A DNA stretch of 64,000 bases from an uncultured Chloroflexota bacterium. GTDB taxonomy: Bacteria > Chloroflexota > Dehalococcoidia > Lucifugimonadales > UBA826. The notes beneath the pieces are model-generated. The model worked only from the letters and a program-made list of their open reading frames with translations, did not search any database and was not told the origin of the DNA. This document shows, piece after piece, positions 2,558 to 49,520 of the stretch. Numbering within the stretch: the stretch's first letter is position 1; each line of letters starts with the position of its first letter. Made by a program: the position numbers and the translations under genes. The DNA lies in the NCBI GenBank assembly GCA_913048525.1, contig CAJWWP010000004.1:5074-69073 (forward strand). The letters are read 5' to 3'.

Positions 2558-3640
2558 ATGCACTACCAAGAAGAACGTAATTACGGGTGTCGGATTTCCG
2601 ATTCATGGACGTACAGAGGATTGAAGACAGTTGTGATGGAAAATGAACTCATACGAATAGTTATTTTGGCGGATAAAGGGGCGGATATTTATCAATTTGT
2701 ATATAAGAAAACTGATACAGATTTCTTATGGCGTTCCCCTTGGGGCGTACGTGACCCATCCAAGTTCATTCCCACTACAGGAGACGGAGTAGGTATGTGG
2801 ATGGACACATATGAGGGGGGATGGCAGACCGTGCTACCGGGGGGTGGGTTTCCTTCTACATATGGGGAAGCCGATATGGGCCTTCATGCCGAAGTTAACA
2901 CACTTCCATGGGATTGCACTATCGTGGAGGATTCAGTCGAAAGGGTTTCAGTAAAATTTTCTGTAAGGACATATAGGACCCCATTTTTTTTTGAAAAATT
3001 ACTTACAATTGAAAAATCTAAACCGGCTTTATTTATAAAACAAACATTGATTAATGAAGGAGCTGAAGCGGTTCACTGTGTATGGGGAGAACACATTGCT
3101 CTTGGCTCACCATTTCTGAATGACAAGTGCCTGATAGATCTTCCTGGAGGGAAAATCATAAATCACCCCAAACAGTTTCACGTGAATAACAAGTTGGAGC
3201 CCGGTGCGGTAACAGATTGGCCTACGACCCGCCTGAAGGATGGTACTGCACATAACCTCAGCAGGGTACCTGGGAAAGATTTTTTCTCCTATGATCAATC
3301 GTACATCACTGAAATGCCCGTTGGCTGGTACGGTATTACGAATAGGGATATAGGGGTGGGATTTGGTGTGGCATTCTCTGACATATACAAATATCTTTGG
3401 TACTGGCAATCTCTGGGTGGAGGAACAGGTTATCCGTGGTACGGACGTACCTATAATATTGGGTTAGAACCATTTACCAGTTATACAAACGAAGGACTTG
3501 GTACCGCCATTGATAATGGTACCGCTTTGTTGGTAGAAGCGGGTCAAGAGGTACAGTCATCCGTTACTGCAGTGGCCTATGAATCCTCAAAAGGAATCGA
3601 AGGGATTTCTCAGTCTGGAGATATAAACCTCAAAAAGTAG
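2558..3640 (+). CDS. Aldose 1-epimerase-like (DUF4432-type) protein
   Basis: 360 aa. The beta-rich sequence has a mutarotase-like layout (ENELIRIVILADKGADIYQF, GGWQTVLPGGG, HAEV, WGEHIALG). Family assignment is from memory only. Confidence 0.5.
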   Translation: MHYQEERNYGCRISDSWTYRGLKTVVMENELIRIVILADKGADIYQFVYKKTDTDFLWRSPWGVRDPSKFIPTTGDGVGMWMDTYEGGWQTVLPGGGFPSTYGEADMGLHAEVNTLPWDCTIVEDSVERVSVKFSVRTYRTPFFFEKLLTIEKSKPALFIKQTLINEGAEAVHCVWGEHIALGSPFLNDKCLIDLPGGKIINHPKQFHVNNKLEPGAVTDWPTTRLKDGTAHNLSRVPGKDFFSYDQSYITEMPVGWYGITNRDIGVGFGVAFSDIYKYLWYWQSLGGGTGYPWYGRTYNIGLEPFTSYTNEGLGTAIDNGTALLVEAGQEVQSSVTAVAYESSKGIEGISQSGDINLKK

Positions 3641-5397: not shown

Positions 5398-6063
5398 TTG
5401 GTTGCTGAAAGACTACCCCGAGAAGTAATTGCTATGCGAGTGGCACAGGAACTCCAAGATGGAAATGTCGTTAATCTAGGCATTGGAATTCCTTCACTGT
5501 GCTCACAATTCGTACCTGAAGGTAGAACGATTTTCTACCATAGTGAAAGTGGAGTTCTAAACTACGGTCCTATGGCGGAGGAAGGTAGAGAAGATCAGGA
5601 TCTCATTAACGCCAGTGGTCAATTTTTAGCCCCGGTGCAGGGGATGTCATTTTTCGATTCAGGTGCAGCATTTGCAATGATTAGAGGAGGACATATAGAT
5701 GTCACAGTACTGGGGGCGCTACAGGTTTCCAGTAAAGGGGATTTAGCTAATTGGATGATTCCCTCACGGGGCATTGGAAATGTAGGTGGTGCGATGGATT
5801 TGGCTGTTGGAGCGAAAAAAGTTATCGTCTCTATGGAACATATTGATCGTGAAGGTAACCCCAAAATTGTCGAAAAGTGTACCTTCCCTCTTACATGTCC
5901 TACCTGTGTTGATATGATAGTGACGGACATTGCTGTCATATCAGTTCAAGATGACGGGTTAGTTTTGCATGAAACCGCTCCCGGTTGGTCCGTTGCGGAT
6001 GTACAGGCAGAGACGGATGCAAAATTAATTATTGCATCTGATGTAAAGAATATTGCGCTCTAG
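5398..6063 (+). CDS. Family-I 3-oxoacid CoA-transferase, subunit B
   Basis: NLGIGIPSL..HSESGVLNYGP contains the catalytic Glu in an S-E-x-G motif. TTG start 2 nt after the subunit A stop. Confidence 0.9.
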   Translation: MVAERLPREVIAMRVAQELQDGNVVNLGIGIPSLCSQFVPEGRTIFYHSESGVLNYGPMAEEGREDQDLINASGQFLAPVQGMSFFDSGAAFAMIRGGHIDVTVLGALQVSSKGDLANWMIPSRGIGNVGGAMDLAVGAKKVIVSMEHIDREGNPKIVEKCTFPLTCPTCVDMIVTDIAVISVQDDGLVLHETAPGWSVADVQAETDAKLIIASDVKNIAL

Positions 6064-8648
6064 GAAAAGACTCCCTCGACCCGGAAAGTGGCTCCATCTT
6101 CGGTTTTTATCACCTCAATTTGTTCCTCAAAACTCTCTTTCATCTGCTCGACATGTGTGATTACTATAATTTTTTCGAACTCTGTCTGCACTGACTGAAT
6201 TGCCTCAGTTAGACGTTCCTGTCCTTTTGAGTCTTGGGAACCAAAACCCTCATCTATGAATAGGATAGGTAATGGGGCACCAGATCTTGAAGCAAGAAGT
6301 TTTGATAACGCAATTCTAAGTGCGAAATCTATGCGAAATGATTCACCTCCACTGAAAGTCTCATAGCTTCTCGTTCCGACTTCATCTGAGACGCGAATGT
6401 CTAACTCCTCAGACGGCACTCCAGTCAATCTATCCAATCTTCCCTCTCGGAGCTCCAATTTTATTGCCATTCTGTTGTCGGTAAGTTTCGATAATAGTTC
6501 ATTTGATATTTCTTGGATCTGCGGAACGGATCTTTCAATCATGAAAGCCTGTATTCCGTTTCGGCCGAAGGCTGCAGTCAACTCATCGTATGAATCTTTT
6601 TCTTGTTTGTGAGAATTAATTGATTTTCTTAATTTCTCAACCTCTGACTCGGTTTGTTCAATGGTTAGTAAGCGGTTTTTCAAAATGTCTCGTTGCGAAA
6701 TTGAGCTTTGTAATTCGCTACGTTTAGATTTGAGGTCTCGTGATACCTCTTGAGACATTTGTGAACTCTCTTGGCTTTGTTGAAGGCGAGTATCAATCTG
6801 TTCAAGTTCTTTATTCCAGATGCCTACCTGTTCTTTTCGATTCTGAATCAAAATCTGATTTGAATCAGAGAATTTATTTATTTCTATTCTTCTGTTCTCG
6901 GCATTTTCAAGCTGACTGCAAAGTTGGCGATACTTTTGATAATTCGTTTCATTGTCTATCAATGATTTATGTGTTTGTTCGTCGTAACCGATTTTCTTGA
7001 TTTGTGATTGAACAAAGTTTAGTTCCTTTCTGTTTTCAACGGAAAAATCATTGGTTACCTTTTTCGATTCTATTGATTTGATCGTATTACGAATAGCGAC
7101 AACTTCCTGTTCTATTTTGTCGAGATGGATGAGCTTAGTTTTTGACGAAATTATGCCAGCGTTGTGGTGATTTTCCTCTTCTTGGAGGAGTTTTCTTTTG
7201 CCTGTAACAATTTCAGATTGGTTAGTGAGGACATCTTGTAATTCAAATATTTTCAGGGAATTAATCTCGTAAGATTTTTTACTTTTCTTTCCAACAAGTT
7301 TCAGTTCATTTTGTAGGTGATCCTTTCCTTTCTCTGCCAAGTTTTGATTACAAACAGGACATGATGCGTCAGATTCTTGGAGAAGATCAAACCTTTTTCT
7401 AGTTTCCGTCATTTGGCTCATCAGGGAAACATTTTCTAAATCGAGCTGATTTTTTTCTTTCTCTAACAAAGATATTTTCGCCTCAATAGATCGAAGTTCC
7501 GTTTCCTGGTTTTTTAGGGTTTTTAATGCATGCTCAAGACTAATTATCCCTTGTTTTATGTCGGGTATCTCTGCGACGGCTGGCAACATCTCTGAATCAA
7601 GACGGGTTTTTAGAATGCCTAATTCCACTGTTATTCTTTCATCTTCTACAGCAATAGCTTGACTGATGGCTGCTGATTTTTTTTCAAGATCCCTTACACT
7701 TCGAAGGTTTTGTTCGACCTTCGCGAGTTCCTTTGAGTTTTGGTCAAGATTTGCCTTGCCTTCGGTAATTTCATCGCTTCGGGAAATTAAATTTTCTAGC
7801 TCTAATAACTCAAGGGATAGCGTAGTTTCTTGTTCTTCGGCCTGTTTGATTTCTTTGACGGCGAGGTTTAAAGACGATTTAAACGTTTCGCTTTGGTTAC
7901 GATCTCTACTGGTGTTTTCGATAATGGCTGATAGTTTGGTTAATTGTTTTTCGAGAACATTCACTTGAGGAGTAATTAGCTCGATGGTAGCGTTAGTTTT
8001 ATTTATAACGTCTGTGACAGATGCCTTATCAGATAATTCTGACGAGTGTATTTCGAGTGCGGTCTCATTTCTGTCTATCTGGCTCTGCAGTTTCCTAGCT
8101 TTTTCCTTGGCTGCTGTTTCTAGTTCTTGGTAATAGTCTAAGGAAAGTACGTCCGCCAAAATTTGTTTGCGGTCCGCTGGATTGCTTTTAGTAAAACGAT
8201 CGGCATCTCCTTGGCGCAAATAAGATGTACTGACAAAGGTGTCGTAATCCATGTGTAGCAGGTTTATAATTTGCTGCTCAGTGTCTCTGATGGTATTTCC
8301 CATTATGGAAGTGGGTTGCTTCCCATTCAGCACTGCCAGGTTGAGTTCGGTTTTTCCTGAACCTGAGCCTCTACTGCGGCTATGAACTCTAGTGACACGG
8401 TATTCTTGATCATTGGCTAAAAAATCTAATTCAACACTCATTGAGGTCTGTCCCTGATGTATCAGTTCCTCTTGAGTTCTGGCTCTCGCTTTTCCCCAAA
8501 GCACCCAGGTGATTGAATCGAGTAGAGCCGTTTTTCCATTTCCGTTGTCACCCGATAGACAGGCTACATGCACATTCTCTAGATTTAGAGTGGGTAATCC
8601 CTGCCGATAGCACATGAAATTCTCAAGTGTGAGCCGGAGCGGTATCAA
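6060..8648 (-). CDS. sbcC: SbcC/Rad50-like SMC ATPase
   Basis: Walker A LSGDNGNGKTALLDSI, a long coiled-coil middle with a CxxC zinc hook (SDASCPVCNQ), the signature FSGGESFR and Walker B LFIDEGFGSQD. GGGAGGA SD 6 nt upstream of the TTG start. Confidence 0.85.
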   Translation of the reverse strand: MIPLRLTLENFMCYRQGLPTLNLENVHVACLSGDNGNGKTALLDSITWVLWGKARARTQEELIHQGQTSMSVELDFLANDQEYRVTRVHSRSRGSGSGKTELNLAVLNGKQPTSIMGNTIRDTEQQIINLLHMDYDTFVSTSYLRQGDADRFTKSNPADRKQILADVLSLDYYQELETAAKEKARKLQSQIDRNETALEIHSSELSDKASVTDVINKTNATIELITPQVNVLEKQLTKLSAIIENTSRDRNQSETFKSSLNLAVKEIKQAEEQETTLSLELLELENLISRSDEITEGKANLDQNSKELAKVEQNLRSVRDLEKKSAAISQAIAVEDERITVELGILKTRLDSEMLPAVAEIPDIKQGIISLEHALKTLKNQETELRSIEAKISLLEKEKNQLDLENVSLMSQMTETRKRFDLLQESDASCPVCNQNLAEKGKDHLQNELKLVGKKSKKSYEINSLKIFELQDVLTNQSEIVTGKRKLLQEEENHHNAGIISSKTKLIHLDKIEQEVVAIRNTIKSIESKKVTNDFSVENRKELNFVQSQIKKIGYDEQTHKSLIDNETNYQKYRQLCSQLENAENRRIEINKFSDSNQILIQNRKEQVGIWNKELEQIDTRLQQSQESSQMSQEVSRDLKSKRSELQSSISQRDILKNRLLTIEQTESEVEKLRKSINSHKQEKDSYDELTAAFGRNGIQAFMIERSVPQIQEISNELLSKLTDNRMAIKLELREGRLDRLTGVPSEELDIRVSDEVGTRSYETFSGGESFRIDFALRIALSKLLASRSGAPLPILFIDEGFGSQDSKGQERLTEAIQSVQTEFEKIIVITHVEQMKESFEEQIEVIKTEDGATFRVEGVFS

Positions 8649-8670: not shown

Positions 8671-9180
8671 TCAAGTCACGGATATCTCTTTGCCGTTCAA
8701 AAGACAAGTACTCACAAGAGGGATGGCATTTCTAACTAGACTTTCTGCGAAGCATCCTTGCTTGGCTAGTTTAATCACCTCTTTAACCTTGTCCTCAGTT
8801 TCCTCTGAATCAACCTCGAAATAGCTTCTAACTTCAGTTACCGAATTATTCACTGTGCCCTTGATAACTGAGCCTTGCAGAAAATAATCGAGCTCTACAT
8901 TCACATTGGCTGATTTAATTTCTATTCCCTTCATTGAAGCGTACCGCTTCAGATTCGTGAGAAGTCAAAATCCAATTCCCCCCGCTATGTATGTTAGGGG
9001 CGAAGGGAAATTGTCATCACCCCCTAGTCTTGGCGGCTCGTCAGAGTAGAACGTGAATTTCTCTCGTGTTCCTTTGTGCAACATTTTTTCAATATGTTCA
9101 CACTTCACTGAAACCGTGGATTGGAATTTTCCTTTTGGTAATTCCTTACCCACAACTGACTGGGGAATATCGCTTGGCAT
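8671..9180 (-). CDS. OsmC/Ohr-family protein with in-frame TGA at 8965-8967 (candidate selenocysteine; alternatively a nonsense pseudogene)
   Basis: ORF-track entries 8965-9180 and 8671-8934 share one frame and are joined by TGA plus 10 sense codons: ..FPSPLTYIAGGIGF[TGA]LLTNLKRYASMKGIEIK..LAKQGCFAESLV. The TGA falls where OsmC proteins carry the first conserved Cys. The second Cys motif is retained. Confidence 0.6.
8935..8951 (-). promoter_or_regulatory. SECIS-like hairpin downstream of the in-frame UGA
   Basis: The mRNA reads UGA CUUCUCACGAAUC UGAAGCG-GUA-CGCUUCA. This is a 7-bp perfect stem starting at +17 from the U of UGA, with an apical GGU at +23 to +25. Confidence 0.4.
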
Positions 9181-12100
9181 TTATGACTCTCTTTCTGGAT
9201 GAAGATATTCTTGGATCGTAAGAACGTTATAGTTTGATCCTCCTTTACAAAGACTCTCCACCGCCGCTCTAGCTGTATCAAGTGACGTAAAGCAGGGGAC
9301 TCTCCTATCCACCGCCGCTCTCCTGATATGAAACCCATCCTGCATCACTTCTCTAGCCCCTGTTACTGTATTCACAACTGCATCCACAGTCCCGTTGTTT
9401 ATGATATCCACAACGTTTGGTCCATCATCATCTAATCTCTTCGGCACCATAACTACCGGTATTTCAAGACCATTTATAACGGCCGCTGTTCCTTCCGTAG
9501 CAAAAAATTTGTATCCAGCTTCATGAAGACCTTTTATGAGAGATACGCTATCTGCCTTATCTTCATCAGATATGCTAAGAAGTATTGCCCCATTTTTGGG
9601 AAGCATCAGGTTTGATGCCATTAAAGCTTTAGCCGCTGCTGACTCAAAATTTTTATCCAGGCCCATTACCTCACCGGTGGATTTCATTTCAGGACCAAGA
9701 AAAGTATCTACGCCAGCGAGTTTGGACATAGAGAAAACGGGAGCTTTTACACCGACCAAGTCCTGTTTTTTCCAAAGACCTCCCTCATATCCTAAATTTT
9801 TGAGTTTTTTCCCCAACATTGCTTTTACTGCTAATTTCACCATGGGCACACCAGTTATTTTTGATATGAACGGGATCGTTCGACTGGATCTAGGATTGAC
9901 TTCAATAACGTAAACTTGAGTATCCTCCGTTACTGGTTTTTTATTTCCGGGACTTCTGTAAGAAGATCCTCCGACAATGACGTATTGGATGTTCATTAGG
10001 CCACGTACGTCTAACGCCCTTCCTATTCTTGTTGTGTAGTCAACTACAGTTTTTATTTCGGTATCAGATAATGTCAATCCTGGGTATATTGCCATTGAGT
10101 CTCCGCTGTGCACGCCAGCCCTTTCAACATGTTCCATAATTCCAGGTATCAATACCGTTTCCCCATCACAAACAGCGTCTACTTCTACTTCTCTACCTTC
10201 AAAATACTTATCAATTAGTACGTTTCTTCCACCACCAGCCTCAAAGGCGTTGGTCATATAGCGTGCCAGCTCTGTTGCATTTTGCACTATCTCCATTGCT
10301 CTACCGCCTAGCACATAACTTGGTCTCACTAAAACGGGGTATCCAATCTCTTGAGCTACCTTTAAAGCTCCCTCAAGGTCTATCACGGCAGATCCCGGCG
10401 GATTAGGAATGCCGACCCGTGCCAGAAATTCTTCAAAAAGTTGTCTGTCGGATGCTGTGTCTATCGAAGACGCAGTTGACCCTAGTATGGGTAGTCCAGC
10501 GGCATCTAGTGTTTGGGATAGGTTAATGGCGGTTTGGCCTCCGAACTGAACTATGGTGGGAGGAATATCAATTTGACCGCTGTTATTTTCTAGTCCTTCG
10601 TTTTCCAATATGTCTCGAATACTTTCATCATCAAGAGGCTCAAAATAGAGCCTGTCACTAGTGTCAAAATCGGTGGAAACTGTCTCCGGGTTCGAGTTCA
10701 CCATTATGCTTCCGAGGCCCTCTTCTTGAAGAGCCCATGCGGCGTGAACAGAGCAATAGTCAAATTCAATACCCTGTCCGATCCTGATAGGTCCGCTTCC
10801 GATTACCAGAGATTTTGGGCCAGGTAGTGGCTCTGCTTCGTTTTCCTCTTCATAAGTACTATAAAAATAAGGAGTTAGAGCTTCGAATTCGGCTGCACAG
10901 GTATCGACCATTTTGAAAACTGGTCTAAAACCGTAGCCTTTCCTTAACCGTCTAGTTTCCTCAGTAGTTCTATCGGTTAAGACGGCTATTCGATCATCTG
11001 GAAACCCCATCCTTTTTGCCTGATACATTAAATTTTGGTCAAGATGCTCATGAATGAGCCGGTTTTCCATATTCGTGATTCTTTCGAACGCTCTCAGGAA
11101 CCAAGGATCTATGCCAGTTCTTCTTGAGAGTTCTTCAGGACTCACATTTCTTCTCAAGGCTGATAGAACTGCCCAAAGTCTTTCATCATTCGGCCCTATC
11201 GGTAATGTGCTAAGCACAGGTTGGTCAGGAGTTATCCAGTCTGGGTCCTCCCAGAGGATAGATCTGTTAGTTATTTCTAAGGATCTTACAGCTTTCTGAA
11301 AAGCGGCTTCGAAAGTTCTATCTATTGCCATGACCTCGCCCGTAGCTTTCATCTGCGTGCCGAGTGTTCTGTCACCAGTAGGAAATTTGTCAAATGGCCA
11401 CCTAGGTATCTTTACAACACAGTAATCCAGAGCTGGTTCAAAAGCTGCTACTGTTTTCTCTGTTACTGCGTTAGGAATTTCGTCTAAAGTGCGTCCCACG
11501 GCTATTTTCGCGGCTACACGAGCGATTGGGTATCCTGTAGCCTTACTAGCTAGTGCCGAGCTGCGGCTTACCCGTGGATTAACTTCGATAACGTAGTAGC
11601 CTTCGCCTTCAGTACCCTTATCTGGGAGGGTTTCACCCACGATTTCTCCTGGTGCTAAGGCAAACTGCACGTTGCATCCACCCTCAATCCCCAATTTTCT
11701 AATTATCTTTAGGCTTGCGGTGCGTAATTTTTGATAGTCATTGTCAGATAGCGTCTGGCTTGGGGCTACGACTATGCTGTCCCCTGTGTGTACCCCCATC
11801 GGATCTATATTTTCCATATTGCATATTGTGATGCAGTTGTCTGCACTATCCCGCATTACCTCATATTCGAGTTCTTTCCAGCCAACGATAGATTTCTCAA
11901 TGAGTACCTGACTTATAGGGCTAGCTGATAGTCCTCCCCTGACAATTTCCTCGAACTCCTCTTCGTTAGTTGCGATTCCTCCCCCGGTGCCGCCAAGTGT
12001 ATATGCTGGTCGAACAACTAGTGGGAGGCCAATTTCTAATTTTGCTGAGGCGGCTTCACCCATGTTGTTCACTGTGGAACTTGGAGGTGCCGGTTCGCCT

Positions 12101-12510
12101 ATATCAGCGAGCATTTTTCGGAACAGGTCTCTATCCTCAGCATTTTTGATCGTGTCGATAGAACTTCCGAGTAGCGCCACATTGTGTTTTTTCAGCACTC
12201 CCGCTTCATGCAATTCCATCGCAAGATTGAGACCAGTTTGGCCTCCTAGAGTAGGGAGCAACCCGTCTGGTTTTTCACGCTCCATAATTCTATCTAATAC
12301 AGGAACAGTTAATGGCTCCACGTAAACTCGGTCAGCGACATCAGTGTCTGTCATGATAGTGGCTGGGTTGGAGTTGACGAGAACGGTCTCAATTCCTTCT
12401 TCACGGAGTGATTTGCAAGCCTGTGTTCCCGCGTAATCAAATTCAGCGGCTTGACCTATCACAATCGGGCCGGATCCAATAACTAGTATTTTTCGTAATT
12501 TTTTAGTCAA
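9181..12510 (-). CDS. carB: Carbamoyl-phosphate synthase large subunit
   Basis: 1109 aa with duplicated ATP-grasp halves ([22 protein letters not shown] and [24 protein letters not shown]) and a C-terminal MGS-like domain. Confidence 0.97.
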
Positions 12511-13261
12511 TTAAGTAATCATTCTCCGATAAATAATCTCTTAGTTTGTCGGGAAAATTTATAGTCATACCGTCTACACCACATTTAACAGCCTTCCTCA
12601 TCAGATCTTCGTTAAATACACCATGACATCTGACTTCTAGTCCTCTATTTTGAATTTTATTTACCAGGGCTGGAGTGATTAGTTCCGCCCTGGGACACAG
12701 TTGGTTGAATTTGGCCTCAACAGCTTCATCCACAAGACTGTCATTCCATGGGCTTCCTGGCCCCAATGGGACCAACCAACCAGTTTTGATTTCAGGGGCA
12801 TGTGACTTGGCTTCTTCTACCCATTGTTTCCAAAATGAAGTGATAACAACGTTATTCTCAATTCCATAGTTTCTAACCATATCGCAGGTTTTGCTAGCCA
12901 AACCCGGTACGCTACGGGCTTTTATTTCTATGTGAAAATTTAATTGGCCCCAGTATCTATCTAATACGTCTGTGAGAGTGCTGATCCTCTGCTCTGAAAA
13001 ACCTTTTCCAAACCAAGATCCTGCATCAAGTTTTTTAAGCTGAGCTAAAGTTAGTCCTGAGACATATCCGACCCCGTTAGTTGTTCGTTCGACGGTGTCG
13101 TCATGAATTACCACGATGTAATTATCTTTAGTGAAATGGACATCTAATTCGATGTCAGTCACTCCCATATCTAGTGCCAAGTCAAAGGCAGCCAAAGTGT
13201 TCTCTGGAGCGTAGGAAGAGGCTCCGCGATGGGCTATATTGGTAAGTTGTTTCACGCTCAC
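12503..13261 (-). CDS. Glycerophosphodiester phosphodiesterase (GDPD) family protein
   Basis: [49 protein letters not shown] is the GDPD catalytic core. GTG start overlaps the carA stop (GTGA), and the 3' end overlaps the carB start by 8 nt. Confidence 0.85.
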
Positions 13262-14364
13262 GACTTAGCCTCTCTAACCATATCTAAGAATTGGTTAAAT
13301 ATGTATTCGTTATCCTTTGGACCTGGGGAAGCCTCAGAGTGATATTGGATGCTCATTGCTGGTAAAGATCGATGTCGTATACCTTCGACAGTTTGATCAT
13401 TCATGCTTACATGGCTAACTTCGACTTCTGATGGTAAGGAGTCTGGGTCGATTGAGTAGCCGTGATTTTGGGCGGTGATATATACTCGCCCTGTGGAGAT
13501 GTCCTGTACGGGATGATTTGATCCTCGATGCCCAAATTTAAGTTTATATGTTTTTCCGCCCAGCGCTTGTCCTAGCACCTGATTACCAAGGCATATCCCC
13601 ATTATTGGCACTCGCCCTAGTAAACCCTTAACGGTTTCTACCGTATATTCAAGTAGTTCAGGGTCACCGGGACCTGGTGACAGCATTATGCCATCAGGGT
13701 TTTGTTTCAGAAGCTCTTCAGCTGTTGTGTCAGAGGGAAATACCTCTACAGCACAGCCATTGGATCTAAGTATTCTAAGTATGTTGAATTTAAGTCCAAA
13801 ATCTGATACGAGTATTTTGAGGTCTGGATTTTTTGGGGGGATATTTTTTATGGATTGAGTCCAGTTGTATGGCTCAATGGAACTTACCTGGGTTACGTAA
13901 TTTACCTTTCCATATGCTGGGATATTTTTGAGCTGGGAAAGGGCTTCTTCAGGACTTATATTGATTGCTATTGCCCCCATCATGACTCCACGTGTTCGTA
14001 TTCTCCGGGTGACGGCGCGAGTATCAATTTCGCTGATTCCAGGGATGTCATGTGCAAGTAAAAAGTCGGTCAGTGTGGATGAACTCTCCCGATGGCTGGG
14101 CTCTTGGCATTGTTGTCGCACTACAAATCCTGAGACTTGAATTTCTTTGGACTCATTGTTTTCTTTATTTATTCCATAATTACCTATCATTGGGTAGGTG
14201 GGTACGACAATCTGTCCCGCGTAAGATGGGTCAGTTAGCATTTCTTGATACCCTGTCATGGAGGTATTGAAAACCACTTCACCGTAAGCCTCGTTAACGG
14301 AACTGAACGGGACGCCTCTAAACGTAGATCCATCCTCTAATACTAGATAAGCTGGTTTTGACAA
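13258..14364 (-). CDS. carA: Carbamoyl-phosphate synthase small (glutaminase) subunit
   Basis: N-terminal CPSase small domain (VFNTSMTGYQEMLTDPSYAGQIV) and a class-I GATase (PIMGICLGNQVL, FGHRGSNHPV, QYHSEASPGP). Confidence 0.95.
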   Translation of the reverse strand: MSKPAYLVLEDGSTFRGVPFSSVNEAYGEVVFNTSMTGYQEMLTDPSYAGQIVVPTYPMIGNYGINKENNESKEIQVSGFVVRQQCQEPSHRESSSTLTDFLLAHDIPGISEIDTRAVTRRIRTRGVMMGAIAINISPEEALSQLKNIPAYGKVNYVTQVSSIEPYNWTQSIKNIPPKNPDLKILVSDFGLKFNILRILRSNGCAVEVFPSDTTAEELLKQNPDGIMLSPGPGDPELLEYTVETVKGLLGRVPIMGICLGNQVLGQALGGKTYKLKFGHRGSNHPVQDISTGRVYITAQNHGYSIDPDSLPSEVEVSHVSMNDQTVEGIRHRSLPAMSIQYHSEASPGPKDNEYIFNQFLDMVREAKS

Positions 14365-14401
14365 TTTTAGTTATCCTCTTATTAATTTACTTTACGTTGA
14401 G

Positions 14402-15748
14402 TTAGTCGTTTCGATAGACATATTCCCCACCGTAAAATGTTGCCTTAACTTTCCCAGTTAGTAATGTTCCATCTAGGGGAGTATTTTTCCCTTTGGATAA
14501 AAATAAACTTGAGTTAACTTTCCACTCTTCGTTGAGATCGAAAACTGTCACATCTGCTGGCCTGCCCACTTTCAAGGTGCCGAGGTTGCTTCCAAGAAAG
14601 GCCGCAGGGTCGGCTGTGAGTTTTTTAATAATCGTTCCTAAACCTACTTTTTTGTTGTGGTAAAGGGAGAGTACAGACCCAAGAGCCGTTTCAAAAACAC
14701 TGATTCCAAAAGCTGCCTCTTGGAATGTGCATACCTTATCGACACTACTGTGGGGCGCATGGTCTGTAGCAATAAAGTCTATTGTGCCGTCATTGATTCC
14801 GTTTGCCATAACGGACATATCAGCGACATTTCGTAATGGGGGGTTTACTTTTGCAGTGGTGTTGTAAGCCTTCGGAGTTAAGGCATCAAATACTGAGTTT
14901 TCATCACCAATCGATAGCACAGCTTCATCAGTGAGAGTGAGATGGTGTGGAGTCACCTCGCAGGTTACATTAATGCCTCGTTTTTTTGCGGCCCTAACCA
15001 TATCGAGGGTCCCTGACGTACTTATGTGAGCTAGATGAATTTTTCCTCCAGTGAGTTCAGAAAGAGAGATGTCTCTGGCCACCATCACCTCTTCAGCAGA
15101 ATTGGGCATGCCTTTTAATCCCAGTCTGGTAGCGACCCAGCCTTCATTCATTGATGCCTCGTTCGCTAATTCTGGTACTTCACAGTGGTTGATTATTGGC
15201 AATCCTAGACTGGAACTATACGTCAGGGCTTGCCTCATAATGTTTGCATCAGACACAGGTTTGCCATCATCACTAAATCCAATTACCCCGGCATCAGCGA
15301 GTTCAGACATTTCTGACAGCTCTTTCCCATGACTATTTTTGGTCACACAACCTATCGGTAAAACTCTTATAACCCCTTCCATCAGGGCCTTGGTCTTCAC
15401 GAAATCTACTATTGCCCTTGTGTCAATTGGTGGATTTGTATTTGGCATGGCGCAAACTGTAGTGAATCCACCCGCAGCAGCCGATTTGGTTCCCGTAGCA
15501 ATAGTCTCTTTGTATTCTTCGCCTGGTTCCCGCAGATGGCAGTGGACATCAATAAATCCTGGAGAGACTATCATTCCATCAGCGTCATATACTGCTGTAC
15601 TTTGACTTGCGGAGGTGATCTGACCTATTTTCTCAATTTTCCCATCCACAATTAGTAAATCGGCAACTTCATCTCTGTCAGAAGCAGGATCTATAAGCCT
15701 TCCACTCTTGATAAGGACTGATTTCGACAATGTAATTCTCCGTTTCAT
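14402..15748 (-). CDS. pyrC: Dihydroorotase
   Basis: Metal-binding FIDVHCHLREPG, the later HLAHIS and FIATDHAPH. Confidence 0.92.
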   Translation of the reverse strand: MKRRITLSKSVLIKSGRLIDPASDRDEVADLLIVDGKIEKIGQITSASQSTAVYDADGMIVSPGFIDVHCHLREPGEEYKETIATGTKSAAAGGFTTVCAMPNTNPPIDTRAIVDFVKTKALMEGVIRVLPIGCVTKNSHGKELSEMSELADAGVIGFSDDGKPVSDANIMRQALTYSSSLGLPIINHCEVPELANEASMNEGWVATRLGLKGMPNSAEEVMVARDISLSELTGGKIHLAHISTSGTLDMVRAAKKRGINVTCEVTPHHLTLTDEAVLSIGDENSVFDALTPKAYNTTAKVNPPLRNVADMSVMANGINDGTIDFIATDHAPHSSVDKVCTFQEAAFGISVFETALGSVLSLYHNKKVGLGTIIKKLTADPAAFLGSNLGTLKVGRPADVTVFDLNEEWKVNSSLFLSKGKNTPLDGTLLTGKVKATFYGGEYVYRND

Positions 15749-15754
15749 AAGGTG

Positions 15755-16741
15755 CTAAATTTCTAAGTTTTGACCGGCTGCCATGGAATAAAGTAGTGAC
15801 ATCCGGACTGCTACCCCACTTTTTACTTGCTCTTCTATAACCGATTGAGCGCCATGGGCTATGTCAGTCTCTATCTCAACACCTTCGTTCATTGGTCCAG
15901 GATGCATTACTAACGCCCCATCTTTGGCAATGGCAAGACGTCGAGCATTTATTCCGTAGGTTTGGGAATATTCCCTGAGCGAAGGAAGATGTCCTGCCCT
16001 CTGTCTTTCCAGTTGAAGTCTTAGTGTCATAATCACATCAGCATCTTTCAGTGCAGTGTCCAAGTCGGTTTGCACTTCCACTCCAGCGAAAGGATGGCCT
16101 TCCTCTGTCCGATGACCGTTAAGGAAATCATTTGGGATTAAGGTTTGAGGTCCACAAATTACAACTCGTGCCCCCATTTTAGTGAGTCCCCATAGATTTG
16201 AACGAGCTACTCTGGAATACAAAATATCGCCTACAATAACGATTTTCTTTCCCTCTATGTCTCCAATGTTCTTTCTGATCGTGTATAGGTCTAGGAGACT
16301 TTGTGTGGGGTGTGCGTGAGTGCCATCTCCCGCATTTATAATATTGGACTTCAACTGGCGGGCGAGGAAATGAGGGGCACCTGAGTGAGGGTGTCTTATT
16401 ACGATTATGTCGGCTTGCATCGCCTGTATCGTTAAAGCTGTGTTGTAGAGGGACTCTCCTTTTTTAGCACTACTTCCGCCGCTCGATACATTTATAACAT
16501 CGGCACTTAGAATTTTTGCTGCTTGCTCAAAGGAAACCCTCGTTCTAGTACTAGATTCATAAAATAGCGTAACAACAGTTTTGCCTCTAAGGGCGGGCAC
16601 TTTTCTGATTTCCCGGTCCAAAACCTGTTCCATGGCCACTGTATTGTCCAAAACGTGGGTAATTTCTTGCTTCGTGAAGCTATCCAAATCAAGAACGTGT
16701 TTCTGACCGAAAGAGTGTTTGGAGTCTGTTTCCAAGGTCAA
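15755..16741 (-). CDS. pyrB: Aspartate carbamoyltransferase catalytic subunit
   Basis: [11 protein letters not shown] carbamoyl-phosphate motif, [11 protein letters not shown] and [11 protein letters not shown]. Confidence 0.95.
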
Positions 16742-17298
16742 ATCTCGTCTCCCATACCGTCGCTTTTCGTGGTAATTACTATTTCATCTTCGCCATCTAT
16801 TTCTCGCAGTCTTACCTGTACATCTTCATCCCTGGCAGTTGGAACGTTCTTGCCGACATAGTCAGCCCTAATTGGTAGTTCCCTATGCCCTCTGTCGACT
16901 AGTACTCCTAGTTGCATCTGGCTTGGGCGTCCGAAATCGCTTATGGCATCCATCGCAGCTCTGATAGATCTTCCTGTGTAAAGAACGTCGTCAATAATTA
17001 CTACTGTTTTACCATTGATGTCGGGGGGAATGTCGGTTGGTTTCATGAGAGGACTTCCCTTTTCAGATATGTCATCTCTATACATACCGATGTCTAGTTT
17101 GCCTACAGGAATTCTTACTCCCTCGAAGCGCTCGATGGCTGTAGAAATTCGCTGAGCGAGTGGTACTCCTCTTGAATGCATACCAACTAACACTACATCA
17201 GTAACGCCACCGTTTCTCTCAAGGATTTCATGAGAAATTCGTGTTAAAGCCCTTTCTATTTGGACTGGATTTTGTATGCGTTTCTCAATTAATGGCAC
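16738..17298 (-). CDS. pyrR: Bifunctional pyr operon regulator / uracil phosphoribosyltransferase PyrR
   Basis: [13 protein letters not shown].. and the PRPP-binding loop [20 protein letters not shown] start; overlaps pyrB by 4 nt. Confidence 0.93.
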
Positions 17299-19549: not shown

Positions 19550-21322
19550 CTAGTTATGTGAATAAATTCGCACGCCACCTGGTTCAGGGATAATTACTAC
19601 AAATTTCCCATTACTGGCTTGGACCCTTTCAGCAATTTCTTCCGTCAAGTCCTCTTTCAGTGCCACACTTTCTGAGCCTGGGTCAACCCATTCGACTGAG
19701 GAGATTTTATAACCTAAGTTTTCCTCAAGAGCAGCTACGAAAAACTCACTGTTGGTGGGTGTGAATACGGTTACATTTTTTATTGGGCCGTCTTTATGTT
19801 GTTCGGGCGATTCCATTAGGCTGGCCCTTTCATTTCTCAGATTTAGCCAATGATATGGCACTATCAGCGAGGAGGCTGCAAGGACCGAAAGAGGAATTCT
19901 AGAGGATCTTATTGCAGAAACGAGTGTGTCTTCCGACAAAAGAAATTTAATAAGGAAAAATATTAATGATGCTAATGAAGGCACAGAAACGAGTATTCCT
20001 ATACCAACGACTCCCGTAAAGAAAACTACCTTAGTTTCCTCTTTGATAGACGCTAGCTTTGGGATTCTGTATCGCCACGTATACCACCATAATGAAGCAC
20101 CCAAGATTAAACTTGATAGACCAAAGGCGGTTGATTCTCTCCAAGAGTTCTCTTCAGTAACTATCTCATTACCACTTCCGGTGACGGAGGTGAGTATGAG
20201 GTTGGTCAGTATGGCTATTCCTGTAGCACCGATAATCAGGGCTATAAAGGAAAATGAATAATCTAAAACCTGAGAACCATTTTGAGCGGATATTTCATGT
20301 CGATTAGGTGACTTAATGATATTGTAGTGGTAGGCAAATAGAACCATTCCCACTATTACCAAGGTTAGTCCACCAGGTATTGGACCAATGTCTCCAGGTT
20401 CATTTTGAACCCCCAAAATAACTGCTAAACACGTGAACAGTAGTAGCAATATTCCAACAAGAAATGTTATCCCTCCCCCAAATATGGTGCAGGCGTATAC
20501 ATAGGCAGATTTCAACCTACTTGTGTGTTTTCGATTGCCTAGTACTAGCCAATGCAGGGCCCACAGAAGTATGCCAGTGATAGCAATAGAGAAGTGATTC
20601 CTCACATTTTCTGAGAAGGTGGCATTTTGGGTTTCAAGCAGTGTCTGTACGCCAGCGATCGAATCATAGGAACTTTCAAAGAGAGAATGAAGAATCGTCC
20701 CAAGGCCATTCGCTGCCATAATTAGGCCAATTAGACTTGTGAGATATATGTAGATATCTCCAATAATTGGTGGGGGAGATGAACTGTTTTTTTGGTCATG
20801 TATGCGCCAATGAAATACCCAAATAAGCGTGAATGGGATTAGGGCAGCCAATTGGTACCAAGAGGATTCTTTTGTGCCTAAGAGGAATTGAATAATTCCA
20901 GTGGCAGAGTGTGCCAAAATGCTAACCGATACAGCCAAAGCCAGAAATTTATAGATTTTCCTTATTTGTGATGAAATTGGCCGAGAACTTTTTTTTATTT
21001 GGTTAGCAAGGATTTTCCAATGAAGGATCCATAGGGGAGCTCCCACCACTACTAGTGCAGTCCCAAGAGCTACTTGGTCAGGACTCGAAGACATAATATT
21101 TTCTGAAAGGAATTCCTGCAGAAGAAATTGGATGAGGATAGTGGAGCCACTACCCACCATGATCAGTGATACGAAAGAGACTAAATAGAAATATAACCGC
21201 TGTAATATTTTCCCAGTTGGTTCGTTAGGGTCTTTATCTCTCTTGCCAAATATGAGGTATAAAGAGGTGCCGGCTACACTGAGCAGTACTACGAATGGCA
21301 GGAGTTCGAAAAAGTCTATCAA
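19550..21322 (-). CDS. Polytopic membrane protein of unknown function with six internal two-helix repeats and a soluble C-terminal domain
   Basis: About 12-13 predicted TM helices. The repeat ends read PLWILHWKIL, LIWVFHWRIH, LLWALHWLVL, VLFAYHYNII, SLWWYTWRYR and LIVPYHWLNL. The last 100 aa or so are hydrophilic. Confidence 0.7.
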   Translation of the reverse strand: MIDFFELLPFVVLLSVAGTSLYLIFGKRDKDPNEPTGKILQRLYFYLVSFVSLIMVGSGSTILIQFLLQEFLSENIMSSSPDQVALGTALVVVGAPLWILHWKILANQIKKSSRPISSQIRKIYKFLALAVSVSILAHSATGIIQFLLGTKESSWYQLAALIPFTLIWVFHWRIHDQKNSSSPPPIIGDIYIYLTSLIGLIMAANGLGTILHSLFESSYDSIAGVQTLLETQNATFSENVRNHFSIAITGILLWALHWLVLGNRKHTSRLKSAYVYACTIFGGGITFLVGILLLLFTCLAVILGVQNEPGDIGPIPGGLTLVIVGMVLFAYHYNIIKSPNRHEISAQNGSQVLDYSFSFIALIIGATGIAILTNLILTSVTGSGNEIVTEENSWRESTAFGLSSLILGASLWWYTWRYRIPKLASIKEETKVVFFTGVVGIGILVSVPSLASLIFFLIKFLLSEDTLVSAIRSSRIPLSVLAASSLIVPYHWLNLRNERASLMESPEQHKDGPIKNVTVFTPTNSEFFVAALEENLGYKISSVEWVDPGSESVALKEDLTEEIAERVQASNGKFVVIIPEPGGVRIYSHN

Positions 21323-34243: not shown

Positions 34244-35083
34244 TTACGATATATCTATTATTTTGAAAGTTGTGTTTCCTTTTGGGGTATCAGCAACTGC
34301 CAACTGTCCTGCTCTCTTGCCGATAAACGCTTTGCCCAAAGGGGAGGCGTCAGATATTTTCCCTTCTAGGGGATTGGCTTCTGATGGACTAACCAAAGTG
34401 TATTTTGTTTTTTTCTTTTTGGAAACTTCCTCTACCCTTATGGTTGTTCCTACACGAACGCTTTTTGTGCCCTTTCCCGATCCGTCCACAATAATTGCCG
34501 TGCGAAGCATTGAGTCAATTTCTTTAATTCTCGCTTCTTCACGTCCCTGCTGTTCTCTCGCTGCTTCCAGAGGAGCATTTTCCCTCACATCACCATCGGA
34601 AGCAGCTCGATGAATCGCTTCGCTGATGGAAACTCGATTAGATTCCAAACCCGACTTTTCGGTTATCAGTTGGTTGTAGCCTTCTTGAGTCATCTGCTGA
34701 CCACGGTTGAGTCCCTCATCTCCCTTGGAGTCTAGCGAAGTCCTTGGTCTTCTAATTCGAAAATGAGTCGATAGATTTACTTGTGTGGCCTCCTGGTCAT
34801 AGGCAAATTTTAAAAACTTTCTGACAGCCTGAAGTCCTTCTAGAGCCTCTGGGGCGCTACTATTTTTACACGCATCCTCAGCGTACGAGCCAATTTGAGA
34901 AGGACTTATTGCTGGCAGGTCAATTTCTAGTTCCCGAAAATGTTTAACGAATCTGTCTAATTCTCTCGCGGCCTCTGGGGTTTTATCTTTTGGCCTCATG
35001 GTGCCTGGGTTCTTGTTCTCTTTGTCAGGTGATGTGTAGACTCCGACAAGGGCCATAAGTTTTATTGTTTCGTCGTTAGCCAA
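34244..35083 (-). CDS. greA: GreA/GreB-family transcript cleavage factor with a 130-aa N-terminal extension
   Basis: The C-terminal 150 aa match GreA (DGDVRENAPLEAAREQQG..RIKEI.. and ..KISDASPLGKAFIGKRAG). The frame stays open 130 codons upstream to a TTG preceded by GGGAGGA at 6 nt. Confidence 0.8.
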   Translation of the reverse strand: MANDETIKLMALVGVYTSPDKENKNPGTMRPKDKTPEAARELDRFVKHFRELEIDLPAISPSQIGSYAEDACKNSSAPEALEGLQAVRKFLKFAYDQEATQVNLSTHFRIRRPRTSLDSKGDEGLNRGQQMTQEGYNQLITEKSGLESNRVSISEAIHRAASDGDVRENAPLEAAREQQGREEARIKEIDSMLRTAIIVDGSGKGTKSVRVGTTIRVEEVSKKKKTKYTLVSPSEANPLEGKISDASPLGKAFIGKRAGQLAVADTPKGNTTFKIIDIS

Positions 35084-41682: not shown

Positions 41683-41687
41683 ACTCT

Positions 41688-42167
41688 TTACGCCTCCTGT
41701 AGTCTCTTGGCAGCGTCTTGGACTGCTCTAACGATTTTGTCATAGCCTGTGCACCGGCATAAGTTATTGGCGAGCCAAAACCTTATCTCGTGTTCAGTTG
41801 GGTTCGGATTTTGTTCTAGCAGTGCCTTGGATGAAATTATGAAACCTGGGGTGCAAATCCCACACTGCAAAGCTGCATTTTCTAGAAACGCTAGTTGCAG
41901 TGGATGGAGATTGCTCCCGTCCGCAACACCTTCGATAGTTTCTATGTTTGCCCCTTCTGCTTCTACACCAAGTACAAGGCAAGCGGTGACTATGCGTCCG
42001 TCTATGTTGACGGTGCAAGCTCCACAGTTCCCATCGTTACAGCCCTCTTTGGTACCTGTTAGGCCTATCTCATCCCTAAGGCATTCAAGTAGGCTTTGTC
42101 TAGGTTCACACAGGAAATCGACGTGTTCCCCATTTATAGTTGTTTGTACGTATGTTTTTGCTGGCAT
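41688..42167 (-). CDS. (2Fe-2S)-binding small subunit of the Mo hydroxylase
   Basis: CNDGNCGACTV and CGICTPG..CRCTGY cluster motifs. Confidence 0.93.
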   Translation of the reverse strand: MPAKTYVQTTINGEHVDFLCEPRQSLLECLRDEIGLTGTKEGCNDGNCGACTVNIDGRIVTACLVLGVEAEGANIETIEGVADGSNLHPLQLAFLENAALQCGICTPGFIISSKALLEQNPNPTEHEIRFWLANNLCRCTGYDKIVRAVQDAAKRLQEA

Positions 42168-49514: not shown

Positions 49515-49520
49515 TCAAAA

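What the first reader, a model, noticed from the sequence alone, without database searches (positions are those of the whole stretch)
8671..9180. OsmC-family gene with an in-frame TGA on the first conserved cysteine plus a SECIS-like hairpin: candidate selenoprotein
- The ORF track splits this gene into 8965-9180 and 8671-8934. Both pieces share one frame and are separated only by TGA (8965-8967) and 10 sense codons.
- The joined product reads ..DDNFPSPLTYIAGGIGF-[UGA]-LLTNLKRYASMKGIEIK..IKLAKQGCFAESLV.
- I aligned it by eye to E. coli OsmC (..NPEELIGAAHAACFSMAL.. and ..KAKAGCPVSQVL). The UGA lies 11 residues after the conserved Pro, as the first conserved Cys does in OsmC. The second Cys motif is intact.
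- Downstream mRNA forms a perfect 7-bp hairpin, UGAAGCG-GUA-CGCUUCA, spanning +17 to +33 from the UGA. Its apical GGU at +23 to +25 is close to the position of the essential G23/U24 loop of the E. coli fdhF SECIS.
- A Cys-to-Sec swap at a redox-active Cys with a correctly spaced hairpin is the classic bacterial selenoprotein signature.
- I recall OsmC-like selenoproteins being predicted from marine metagenomes, but I cannot verify that here.
- The gene is translationally abutted to carB: the carB TAA is immediately followed by the OsmC ATG.
Basis: partly seen in the sequence, partly recalled or inferred. Interest (0 to 1): 0.75.

Follow-up and report, generated by a model that had tools for sequence, protein, structure and literature searches.

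The report
Known OsmC-like selenoprotein gene in SAR202
This is a real selenocysteine-encoding gene for an OsmC-type peroxide-defence protein in a marine SAR202 bacterium, but its family was described in 2005 and has a curated NCBI model, so it is an ordinary member and not a discovery.

Summary
A 169-codon minus-strand gene (9180..8671) abuts the carB stop codon. It has an in-frame TGA at 8967..8965 and a perfect 7-bp hairpin at +17..+33.

The selenoprotein reading is strongly supported:
- All 71 intact relatives (42-92% identical; SAR202/Dehalococcoidia and Nitrospinota) carry TGA at this column.
- 50 more distant full-length homologues and four solved OsmC-like structures carry Cys there.
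- The four codons after the TGA vary mainly at synonymous sites, so they are translated.
- The hairpin codons are the most synonymously frozen in the gene (normalised entropy 0.21 against 0.87).
- Four of the eight tested stem pairs (the 7-bp stem plus one outer pair) show compensatory changes.
- The in-register hairpin is absent from genes that encode Cys.
- The hairpin meets every constraint of the published bacterial SECIS model.

The finding is not new. The motif U-L-L-T matches the "OsmC-like protein, UxxT" selenoprotein family of Zhang et al. 2005. NCBIfam NF041052 "OsmC-related (seleno)protein" matches at E=4.7e-46, above its cut-off.

Sec machinery could not be checked, because none of it lies in the 64-kb window. 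The only practical value is annotation: public SAR202 records call this gene as two hypothetical proteins.

The parts
8671..9180 (-). Complete coding sequence of an OsmC-like selenoprotein: 169 codons including Sec72, with terminator TGA at 8673..8671.
   Evidence: Translation. Pfam OsmC E=8.7e-14. NCBIfam NF041052 'OsmC-related (seleno)protein' E=4.7e-46, 156.3 bits against a cut-off of 95. A close relative (P0001) gives an OsmC/Ohr fold model with pLDDT 92.6; the best PDB matches are 2opl, 2onf and 3cje.
8965..8967 (-). In-frame UGA, read as selenocysteine (codon 72). It is the first residue of the U-L-L-T (UxxT) motif.
   Evidence: TGA sits at the same column in 71/71 intact relatives. Cys sits there in 50 more distant full-length homologues and in 2opl, 3cje, 2onf and 9wo1. 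In the model the column lies in the long central helix 61-83.
8935..8951 (-). Bacterial SECIS hairpin. The 5' arm is 8951..8945, the GUA loop is 8944..8942 and the 3' arm is 8941..8935 (+17..+33 from the UGA). A further U-A pair at +16/+34 forms in many relatives.
   Evidence: Fold of -10.9 kcal/mol. 84.5% of cells are paired, against 19-55% for slid controls, and 4 of 8 pairs show compensatory changes. Synonymous entropy is 0.21 against 0.87 elsewhere. In-register pairs number 6.16/7 in Sec genes against 3.5/7 in Cys genes. All four constraints of the bSECIS model in PMC13188914 are met.
8956..8964 (-). Codons 73-75 (L-L-T) directly after the UGA. Thr75 completes the UxxT motif.
   Evidence: The amino acids are conserved across 69 genes (Leu73 and Leu74 in all 69, Thr75 in 68), while synonymous codons vary widely: 5, 6 and 4 different codons. 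This shows that the codons are translated past the UGA.
8752..8754 (-). Codon for Cys143 (motif AKxGC). This is the second conserved OsmC cysteine and the presumed resolving residue.
   Evidence: It is invariant in 54/54 aligned Sec and Cys homologues. It aligns with Cys in 3cje and 2onf.
9181..12510 (-). carB (large subunit of carbamoyl-phosphate synthase), the upstream neighbour. Its TAA stop codon abuts the selenoprotein ATG.
   Evidence: The carB-osmC(Sec)-sbcC order is kept in about 23 SAR202 loci.
6060..8648 (-). sbcC/Rad50-type ATPase gene, the downstream neighbour. It starts 22 nt after the selenoprotein stop codon.
   Evidence: NCBIfam TIGR00618 sbcC E=3.2e-76. Synteny is shown.

Best explanation
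The gene encodes a selenocysteine-containing member of the OsmC/Ohr superfamily: the known 'OsmC-like protein, UxxT' selenoprotein family (NCBIfam NF041052). The host is a marine SAR202 (Chloroflexota, Dehalococcoidia) bacterium.

How the recoding works. During translation, UGA72 is not read as stop. The 7-bp hairpin with a G-GUA-C apex lies 13 nt downstream of the UGA, inside the coding sequence, and acts as a bacterial SECIS. It recruits SelB-GTP-Sec-tRNA(Sec) to the ribosome, so that Sec is inserted. The second UGA (8673..8671) has no such hairpin after it and terminates translation.

How the protein works. Sec72 sits on the central helix, where OsmC/Ohr proteins carry their peroxidatic cysteine. 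It most likely attacks hydroperoxides and is oxidised to a selenenic acid. It then forms a selenenylsulfide with Cys143, and a thiol donor reduces that bond.

Shown here: the conserved UGA, the Sec/Cys pairing, translation past the UGA, the conserved and covarying hairpin, and the OsmC fold.

Inferred: SelB-dependent decoding, peroxidase chemistry, and the identity of the reductant.
For: - TGA at the column in 71/71 intact relatives that are 42-92% identical to the window protein.
- Cys at the column, together with CxxT and an invariant Cys143, in 50 full-length homologues and in PDB 2opl, 3cje, 2onf and 9wo1.
- Codons 73-76 vary mainly at synonymous sites, while codons 77-83 are the most synonymously frozen in the gene: normalised entropy 0.21 against 0.87+-0.11. 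All 67 Arg79 codons are CGG.
- In the hairpin, 84.5% of cells are paired against 19-55% for slid controls. Compensatory changes occur at 4 of 8 pairs: GAAGC/GCUUC, GAGGC/GCCUC, UGCGC/GCGCA and UGGGC/GCCCA, plus a closing G-C to A-U change.
- Genes that encode Cys lack the in-register hairpin: 3.5/7 pairs against 6.16/7.
- The bSECIS model constraints are met: 3-nt loop, 7-bp stem, apex G-G-U-A-C fitting N1-G-[G|U]-N-N2, 20 nt between the UGA and the loop, and -10.9 kcal/mol (criteria from PMC13188914).
- NF041052 matches at E=4.7e-46, above its cut-off.
- The family is published with the motif UxxT (PMC1088965, PMC2398784).
- TGA is an ordinary stop codon in this window, ending 8 of 42 long ORFs.
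- Related lineages are known to be rich in selenoproteins. The genome of L070 is listed with 54 selenoprotein genes, and Dehalococcoidia MAGs with 46-49 (PMC13326102).
Against: - No selA, selB, selD or tRNA-Sec lies in the 64-kb window. None was found in 1.44 Mb of related loci either. Use of Sec by this particular genome is therefore inferred, not shown.
- The window hairpin alone is only modestly more stable than shuffled sequence (z=-2.05).
- A large Dehalococcoidia clade carries an A.A mismatch in the stem (26 of 62 sequences).
- The compensatory changes trace back to a handful of lineages, so the number of independent events is small.
- No Rfam family matched the region.
- There is no biochemical evidence for selenium incorporation or for peroxidase activity.
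Confidence: 0.92

Rival explanations
1. The gene is a pseudogene, or the TGA is an assembly or sequencing error in an ordinary OsmC gene that encodes Cys.
For: A single in-frame stop codon is the commonest signature of a pseudogene. Three relatives do look damaged: L073 and L076 are frameshifted, and L092 has TTA at the column.
Against: The same TGA occurs in 71/71 intact relatives from independent assemblies, single-cell genomes and closed chromosomes, down to 42% identity. Reading frames are intact and amino-acid conservation holds on both sides. TGA is one base away from TGY, yet no close relative has TGY.
Confidence: 0.01
2. Translation stops at UGA72, and the C-terminal part is made separately from the ATG at 8934. 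This would give a two-piece OsmC protein, which is how public annotation calls the gene.
For: Met83 and its AUG are nearly invariant directly after the hairpin (68/69). Public records annotate a 71-aa protein and an 87-aa protein side by side.
Against: - Codons 73-82 lie between the UGA and the AUG. They show protein-type conservation, with free synonymous change at codons 73-76.
- They include Thr75 of the UxxT/CxxT motif, which is conserved in 53/54 homologues.
- Met83 is equally conserved in single-piece homologues that encode Cys, so its conservation reflects the protein.
- The break would cut the central helix 61-83 and remove the catalytic residue.
Confidence: 0.03
3. UGA72 is read through as a standard amino acid (Trp, Cys or Gly). 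The cause would be a reassigned genetic code or near-cognate suppression stimulated by the hairpin, without selenium.
For: Some gene callers translated the codon as Trp under genetic code 4 (P0001, P0002). No Sec machinery has been seen in the data available.
Against: TGA ends 8 of 42 long ORFs in the window, including this gene itself, and interrupts no other gene. The column is the catalytic Cys of homologues, which is the classic position for a Sec/Cys exchange. The hairpin fits the SelB-type SECIS model in spacing and in its G-G-U apex. Related genomes hold dozens of selenoprotein genes.
Confidence: 0.04

Closest known systems
OsmC-like protein selenoprotein family (UxxT): Zhang, Fomenko & Gladyshev 2005, Sargasso Sea (PMC1088965); GOS 2008 (PMC2398784); NCBIfam NF041052 'OsmC-related (seleno)protein'
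   Same: OsmC domain (PF02566/COG1765), Sec in a UxxT motif, a stem-loop with a G in the apical loop directly downstream of the UGA, marine origin, and Cys homologues. The window protein scores 156 bits against the NF041052 cut-off of 95.
   Different: Nothing essential differs. Three details were added here: the carriers are SAR202/Dehalococcoidia and Nitrospinota-labelled genomes; every one of 71 intact close relatives uses Sec; and the hairpin covaries. I could not retrieve the original Sargasso sequences (AACY01145085) for a direct alignment.
GSU2788 of Geobacter sulfurreducens (PDB 2opl) and other solved OsmC-like proteins (3cje, 2onf, 1lql, 1vla)
   Same: The fold is the same: Foldseek E=2e-09 and TM 0.73 for the model of the 69%-identical relative P0001. 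The sequences are related: phmmer E=9e-11. The catalytic Cys lies at the Sec column, 11 residues after the conserved Pro.
   Different: These proteins carry Cys, not Sec, and their genes need no recoding signal. 2opl also lacks the second Cys at the position of Cys143 (alignment).
Ohr/OsmC thiol-dependent hydroperoxide reductases (for example Xylella and Pseudomonas Ohr, E. coli OsmC)
   Same: The superfamily and fold are shared (ranks 13-49). Both have two conserved redox residues, one on the central helix and one near the C-terminal helices. From established knowledge of the family, these act as the peroxidatic and resolving residues.
   Different: Sequence identity is only 12-19%. The window protein has an extra N-terminal segment of about 35 residues. 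Sec replaces the peroxidatic Cys. Activity and reductant are untested.
E. coli fdhF SECIS, the reference bacterial Sec insertion element
   Same: It is a hairpin inside the coding sequence just 3' of the UGA, with a G-U step in the apical loop at about +23 to +25 (my own knowledge for fdhF; consensus model in PMC13188914).
   Different: The element here is much shorter: a 7-8 bp stem and a 3-nt loop, with 13 unpaired nt after the UGA, against a roughly 40-nt structure in fdhF. It has no bulged U. There is no sequence similarity and no Rfam match.

Membership tests
OsmC-like (UxxT) selenoprotein family / NCBIfam NF041052 | Match to the curated family model above its cut-off | tested here: met
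   NF041052.1 OsmC_like_Se: E=4.7e-46, 156.3 bits against a cut-off of 95, covering residues 23-163.
OsmC-like (UxxT) selenoprotein family / NCBIfam NF041052 | In-frame UGA aligned with a conserved Cys of homologues (Sec/Cys pair), also found in TGA-containing homologues from other organisms | tested here: met
   TGA in 71/71 intact relatives. Cys in 50 full-length homologues and four PDB chains.
OsmC-like (UxxT) selenoprotein family / NCBIfam NF041052 | Redox motif UxxT | tested here: met
   The window reads U72-L-L-T75. Thr occupies this position in 53/54 homologues. The motif is listed in PMC1088965 and PMC2398784.
OsmC-like (UxxT) selenoprotein family / NCBIfam NF041052 | Sec-decoding machinery (selA, selB, selC, selD) in the same genome | not testable with these tools
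   None lies in the 64-kb window or in 1.44 Mb of related loci. The rest of the genome is not available. Related genomes are reported as rich in selenoproteins (PMC13326102).
OsmC-like (UxxT) selenoprotein family / NCBIfam NF041052 | Selenium actually incorporated at the UGA | not testable with these tools
   This needs 75Se labelling or mass spectrometry.
Bacterial SECIS consensus model (bSECISearch model as given in PMC13188914, Fig. 2A legend) | Apical loop of 3-9 nt on an upper stem of 4-16 bp | tested here: met
   GUA loop (3 nt) on a perfect 7-bp stem. The stem is supported by covariation.
Bacterial SECIS consensus model (bSECISearch model as given in PMC13188914, Fig. 2A legend) | G in the first two loop positions; pattern N1-G-[G|U]-N-N2 with N1 and N2 paired | tested here: met
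   The apex is G23-G24-U25-A26-C27. G24, U25 and A26 are invariant in 62 distinct sequences.
Bacterial SECIS consensus model (bSECISearch model as given in PMC13188914, Fig. 2A legend) | [quoted passage not shown] | tested here: met
   20 nt (+4..+23) lie between the UGA and the loop.
Bacterial SECIS consensus model (bSECISearch model as given in PMC13188914, Fig. 2A legend) | Minimum free energy of -7.5 kcal/mol or lower | tested here: met
   -10.9 kcal/mol for +1..+53. For the 26-nt core alone, the 68 Sec genes average -6.9 with a range of -2.4 to -11.8, so some relatives are near or above the limit.
Bacterial SECIS consensus model (bSECISearch model as given in PMC13188914, Fig. 2A legend) | Binding by SelB and dependence of read-through on the hairpin | not testable with these tools
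   This needs a reporter or binding assay.
OsmC/Ohr superfamily (Pfam PF02566) | Domain match above the gathering score, and the OsmC fold | tested here: met
   PF02566 E=8.7e-14, 52.2 bits against 27.5. The model of relative P0001 has pLDDT 92.6. All 48 PDB matches with E<=0.001 are OsmC/Ohr entries. The window protein itself could not be submitted for modelling.
OsmC/Ohr superfamily (Pfam PF02566) | Two conserved redox residues: one on the central helix, one near the C-terminal helices | tested here: met
   Sec72 lies in helix 61-83. Cys143 lies between helices 129-141 and 144-150. Both columns are conserved.
OsmC/Ohr superfamily (Pfam PF02566) | Thiol-dependent hydroperoxide reductase activity | not testable with these tools
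   This needs an enzyme assay.
Reassigned genetic code (TGA as a sense codon; tables 4 and 25) | TGA used as a sense codon throughout the genes and not as a stop codon | tested here: not met
   TGA ends 8 of 42 long ORFs. No other real gene is interrupted by TGA.

The most novel reading that the evidence does not exclude
The most novel reading still open has two parts.

First, the very compact hairpin (7-8 bp, with an invariant G-GUA-C apex) could define a lineage-specific minimal SECIS class. It is shared by SAR202/Dehalococcoidia and Nitrospinota-labelled genomes, and these lineages never revert to Cys (71/71).

Second, the conserved abutment of the gene to carB in SAR202 could reflect translational coupling of a selenium-dependent peroxidase to the pyrimidine operon, and not mere adjacency.

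Both parts are refinements of a known system. Neither would be a new kind of system.
Probability: 0.08. Interest if true: 0.3.

Novelty: already known. Interest (0 to 1): 0.15.

Why it matters
The finding matters little as a discovery. OsmC-like selenoproteins with a UxxT motif were reported from the Sargasso Sea in 2005 and confirmed in the GOS data. They are listed in the 2022 and 2026 reviews and are captured by a curated NCBI model.

The practical point is annotation. In public SAR202 and Chloroflexota records, this exact gene is called as two adjacent hypothetical proteins of 71 and 87 residues. The 71-residue fragment was seen on 112 contigs and the nearly identical 87-residue fragment on 56. 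Elsewhere it is read through as Trp under the wrong genetic code. The catalytic residue is therefore lost from catalogues.

The finding also adds one data point that abundant deep-ocean SAR202 bacteria spend selenium on peroxide defence. The set of 62 distinct Sec-type hairpin sequences and 10 Cys-type controls is a clean small example of how a bacterial SECIS constrains synonymous sites.

Tried and rejected
- Rfam at gathering score on the whole window, and at E<=10 on 8850..9050, gave only chance snoRNA and lncRNA matches.
- ARAGORN found no tRNA at all in the window. It found no tRNA-Sec among 12 tRNAs in 1.44 Mb of related loci.
- A tblastn search with an E. coli SelD sequence written from memory found nothing in the window or the loci.
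- NCBIfam and Pfam scans of 50 window proteins found housekeeping genes and no sel genes.
- Literature searches for SAR202 together with selenium terms found nothing relevant.
I modelled the 69%-identical relative P0001 instead.
- Comparing raw folding energies of Sec-type and Cys-type genes was uninformative (-6.9 against -5.9 kcal/mol), because the Cys genes come from GC-rich soil genomes. I replaced that comparison with a count of in-register pairs.
- RNAalifold kept only the inner four pairs. The outer pairs rest on my explicit pair count.
- A conserved AUG after the hairpin might have been a re-initiation signal. I rejected this because Met83 is equally conserved in homologues that encode Cys.
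- A search for further TGA-split genes or CxxU/UxxC contexts in the window found none.
- Looking up the full-length protein with the letter U in the protein collection was not accepted by the tool.

Full report
**Observation**

On the minus strand an ATG at 9180 directly follows the TAA stop codon of carB (9183..9181). The frame runs 71 codons to a TGA at 8967..8965 and continues through ten sense codons to the ATG at 8934. It ends at a second TGA at 8673..8671. The sequence 13 nt after the first TGA is UGAAGCG-GUA-CGCUUCA, a perfect 7-bp hairpin at +17..+33 (window 8951..8935).

With Cys placed at the TGA, the joined product matches Pfam OsmC across the junction (E=8.7e-14, residues 54-155).

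**Is TGA simply a sense codon here?**

No. The window (43% G+C) is densely coding, and TGA ends 8 of 42 long ORFs. No other real gene is split by an in-frame TGA. Nor does any gene have a short TGA-bounded extension with a redox motif. The selenoprotein gene itself terminates on TGA.

**Relatives**

A first protein search returned only four hits, and their form was telling:
- two full-length proteins with Trp at the column;
- one fragment starting at Met83;
- one fragment ending at residue 71.

The DNA behind all of them has TGA at the column. The Trp is therefore an artefact of gene callers that switch to genetic code 4.

A scan of one genome per species found 68 loci with 42-92% amino-acid identity. 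They come from SAR202, other Dehalococcoidia and Nitrospinota-labelled genomes. The closest is SAR202 cluster bacterium AC-647-P02 (92%), which places the window in SAR202.
- All 71 intact genes, counting the window and the metagenome copies, have TGA at the column.
- Two loci (L073, L076) are frameshifted.

More distant relatives have Cys at the column:
- twelve weak matches from Actinomycetes and other bacteria;
- 50 full-length homologues at 32-46% identity, with CxxT in 53 of 54 aligned sequences and the second cysteine invariant;
- the solved OsmC-like proteins 2opl, 3cje, 2onf and 9wo1.

This is a textbook Sec/Cys pair at the catalytic position.

**Are the codons after the UGA translated?**

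I made a codon alignment of 69 distinct genes.
- Codons 73-76 (L-L-T-N/Q) keep their amino acids but use 5, 6, 4 and 2 different synonymous codons. This is the signature of selection on a translated protein.
- Codons 77-83 are the most synonymously frozen in the whole gene. Normalised synonymous entropy is 0.21, against 0.87+-0.11 for 106 other codons. All 67 Arg79 codons are CGG, 60 of 61 Lys78 codons are AAG, and 68 of 69 Tyr80 codons are UAC.

The frozen stretch coincides exactly with the hairpin.

**The hairpin as a structure**

I tested an 8-pair structure (+16..+23 with +27..+34) on 62 distinct sequences.
- 84.5% of cells form a standard pair, against 19-55% when the 3' arm is slid by 1-3 columns.
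- Four of the eight pairs show changes on both sides that keep the pair.
- The stem is GAAGC/GCUUC in SAR202 and GAGGC/GCCUC in L068, where the closing G-C becomes A-U.
- In the Nitrospinota-labelled genomes the stem is UGCGC/GCGCA or UGGGC/GCCCA.
- L092 adds GACGC/GCGUC.
- The G-U-A loop is invariant.

There are weaknesses. A large Dehalococcoidia clade has an A.A mismatch at one pair. The compensatory events trace to few lineages. RNAalifold retains only the four inner pairs. The window hairpin alone has z=-2.05.

As a control I fetched DNA of ten distinct Cys-type genes. They conserve R-Y-A at the protein level but use varied codons. They form only 3.5 of 7 in-register pairs, against 6.16 of 7 in Sec-type genes, and never more than three consecutive pairs from the loop. 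The hairpin therefore goes with the UGA and not with the protein.

**Fit to the bacterial SECIS model**

The model is given in PMC13188914. It requires:
- a 3-9 nt loop on a 4-16 bp stem;
- a G in the first two loop positions, with the pattern N1-G-[G|U]-N-N2;
- 16-37 nt between the UGA and the loop;
- a free energy of -7.5 kcal/mol or lower.

The window has a 3-nt loop on 7 bp, the apex G-G-U-A-C, 20 nt of spacing and -10.9 kcal/mol. All four constraints are met.

**The protein**

The tool did not accept the window protein with Cys at residue 72. I therefore modelled the 69%-identical relative P0001 with a 52-sequence alignment. The model has pLDDT 92.6. All 48 PDB matches with E<=0.001 are OsmC/Ohr entries, led by 2opl (E=2e-09, TM 0.73).

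Residue 72 lies in the long central helix 61-83. Cys143 lies between the two C-terminal helices. By established knowledge of Ohr and OsmC, these are the positions of the peroxidatic and resolving cysteines.

The likely chemistry is attack of Sec72 on a hydroperoxide, formation of a selenenylsulfide with Cys143, and reduction by a thiol donor. This chemistry is inferred and was not tested.

**Comparison with what is known**

- The Sargasso Sea selenoproteome paper of 2005 lists "OsmC-like protein", COG1765, motif UxxT, with a predicted SECIS (PMC1088965).
- The GOS analysis lists it again, under pfam02566 with motif UxxT (PMC2398784).
- The reviews of 2022 and 2026 carry it with example accessions.
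- NCBIfam has a dedicated model, NF041052 "OsmC-related (seleno)protein". The window protein matches it at E=4.7e-46 and 156 bits, against a cut-off of 95.
- The window motif is U-L-L-T.

The gene is therefore a member of a family that is already described and curated.

**Sec machinery**

- None of selA, selB, selD or tRNA-Sec is in the window.
- No tRNA-Sec and no selD-like sequence turned up in 1.44 Mb of related loci.
- With only a 64-kb window, this absence says nothing either way.
- Indirect support comes from the BSepDB paper. It lists FO_M_Nitrospinota_01, the genome of L070, with 54 selenoprotein genes. It lists Dehalococcoidia MAGs with 46-49 (PMC13326102).

**Context**

The gene is the last of a minus-strand run: pyrR, pyrB, pyrC, carA, a glycerophosphodiesterase gene, carB, then the selenoprotein gene, followed by sbcC. 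The order carB-osmC(Sec)-sbcC is kept in about 23 SAR202 loci, but not in the other Dehalococcoidia or Nitrospinota loci.

**Verdict**

- The finding is already known.
- Confidence in the selenoprotein reading is about 0.92.
- The rivals each score 0.01-0.04: pseudogene or error, a two-piece protein, and read-through without selenium.
- Interest is low (0.15). The main use is to correct public annotation, which calls the gene as two hypothetical proteins on many contigs.

Noticed in passing
window 8671-8673 (minus strand): The gene's true terminator is also TGA. One mRNA therefore carries two UGA codons: the first is read as Sec and has the hairpin after it, the second is read as stop. After the second comes a GGAGG ribosome-binding site and the TTG start codon of sbcC at 8648.
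   Followed up: partly
public protein records P0122 (71 aa; MAP37951.1, MBE43385.1, MQG01326.1), P0100 (87 aa; MAP37950.1), P0092, P0001, P0002: Public records call this gene in one of two wrong ways. Most show two adjacent 'hypothetical proteins' in SAR202/Chloroflexota MAGs. The window's exact 71-aa fragment is on 112 contigs, and the 98%-identical 87-aa fragment P0100 is on 56. Others show a read-through product with Trp at the Sec position, produced by gene callers using genetic code 4 on short contigs.
   Followed up: yes
L092 912-1490 (NCBI JAGELI010017923.1): One relative has TTA (Leu) instead of TGA at the Sec column. It keeps a perfect hairpin, GACGC-GGUAC-GCGUC. This is either a one-base sequencing error or a recent inactivating mutation.
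   Followed up: partly
L073 8355-8845 and L076 10001-10505: Two SAR202/Dehalococcoidia MAG copies of the gene are frameshifted, one before and one after the Sec codon. These are assembly errors or pseudogenes.
   Followed up: no
window 12503-17298 (minus strand): The pyrimidine gene run is pyrR, pyrB, pyrC, carA, carB, with a glycerophosphodiester phosphodiesterase gene (12503..13261) inserted between carA and carB. Its ends overlap both neighbours by a few bases.
   Followed up: no
window 39436-43046 and 48324-50117: A CoxL/M/S-type molybdenum hydroxylase gene set is present: a 748-aa Mo-binding subunit, a 2Fe-2S subunit and an FAD subunit. XdhC-type and MobA-like maturation genes lie a few kb away. 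The substrate is unknown.
   Followed up: no
window 31156-34056 (minus strand): A 966-aa fusion of FAD-linked oxidase domains with a cysteine-rich CCG domain, resembling a glycolate or D-lactate oxidase fused to its iron-sulfur partner.
   Followed up: no
window 34244-35083 (minus strand): A GreA/GreB homologue of 279 aa. The GreA domains occupy only residues 130-279, leaving an N-terminal extension of about 125 residues with no family match.
   Followed up: no
window 19550-21322 and 2558-3640: Two sizeable ORFs (590 aa and 360 aa) had no NCBIfam match at E<=1e-5.
   Followed up: no
N-terminal segment of the selenoprotein, window 9076-9180: Residues 1-35 precede the OsmC domain. They contain a CEHxEKMLH motif whose Cys27 is conserved in most SAR202/Dehalococcoidia copies. 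The Nitrospinota-type copies and L057/L067 lack it. Its role is unknown.
   Followed up: no
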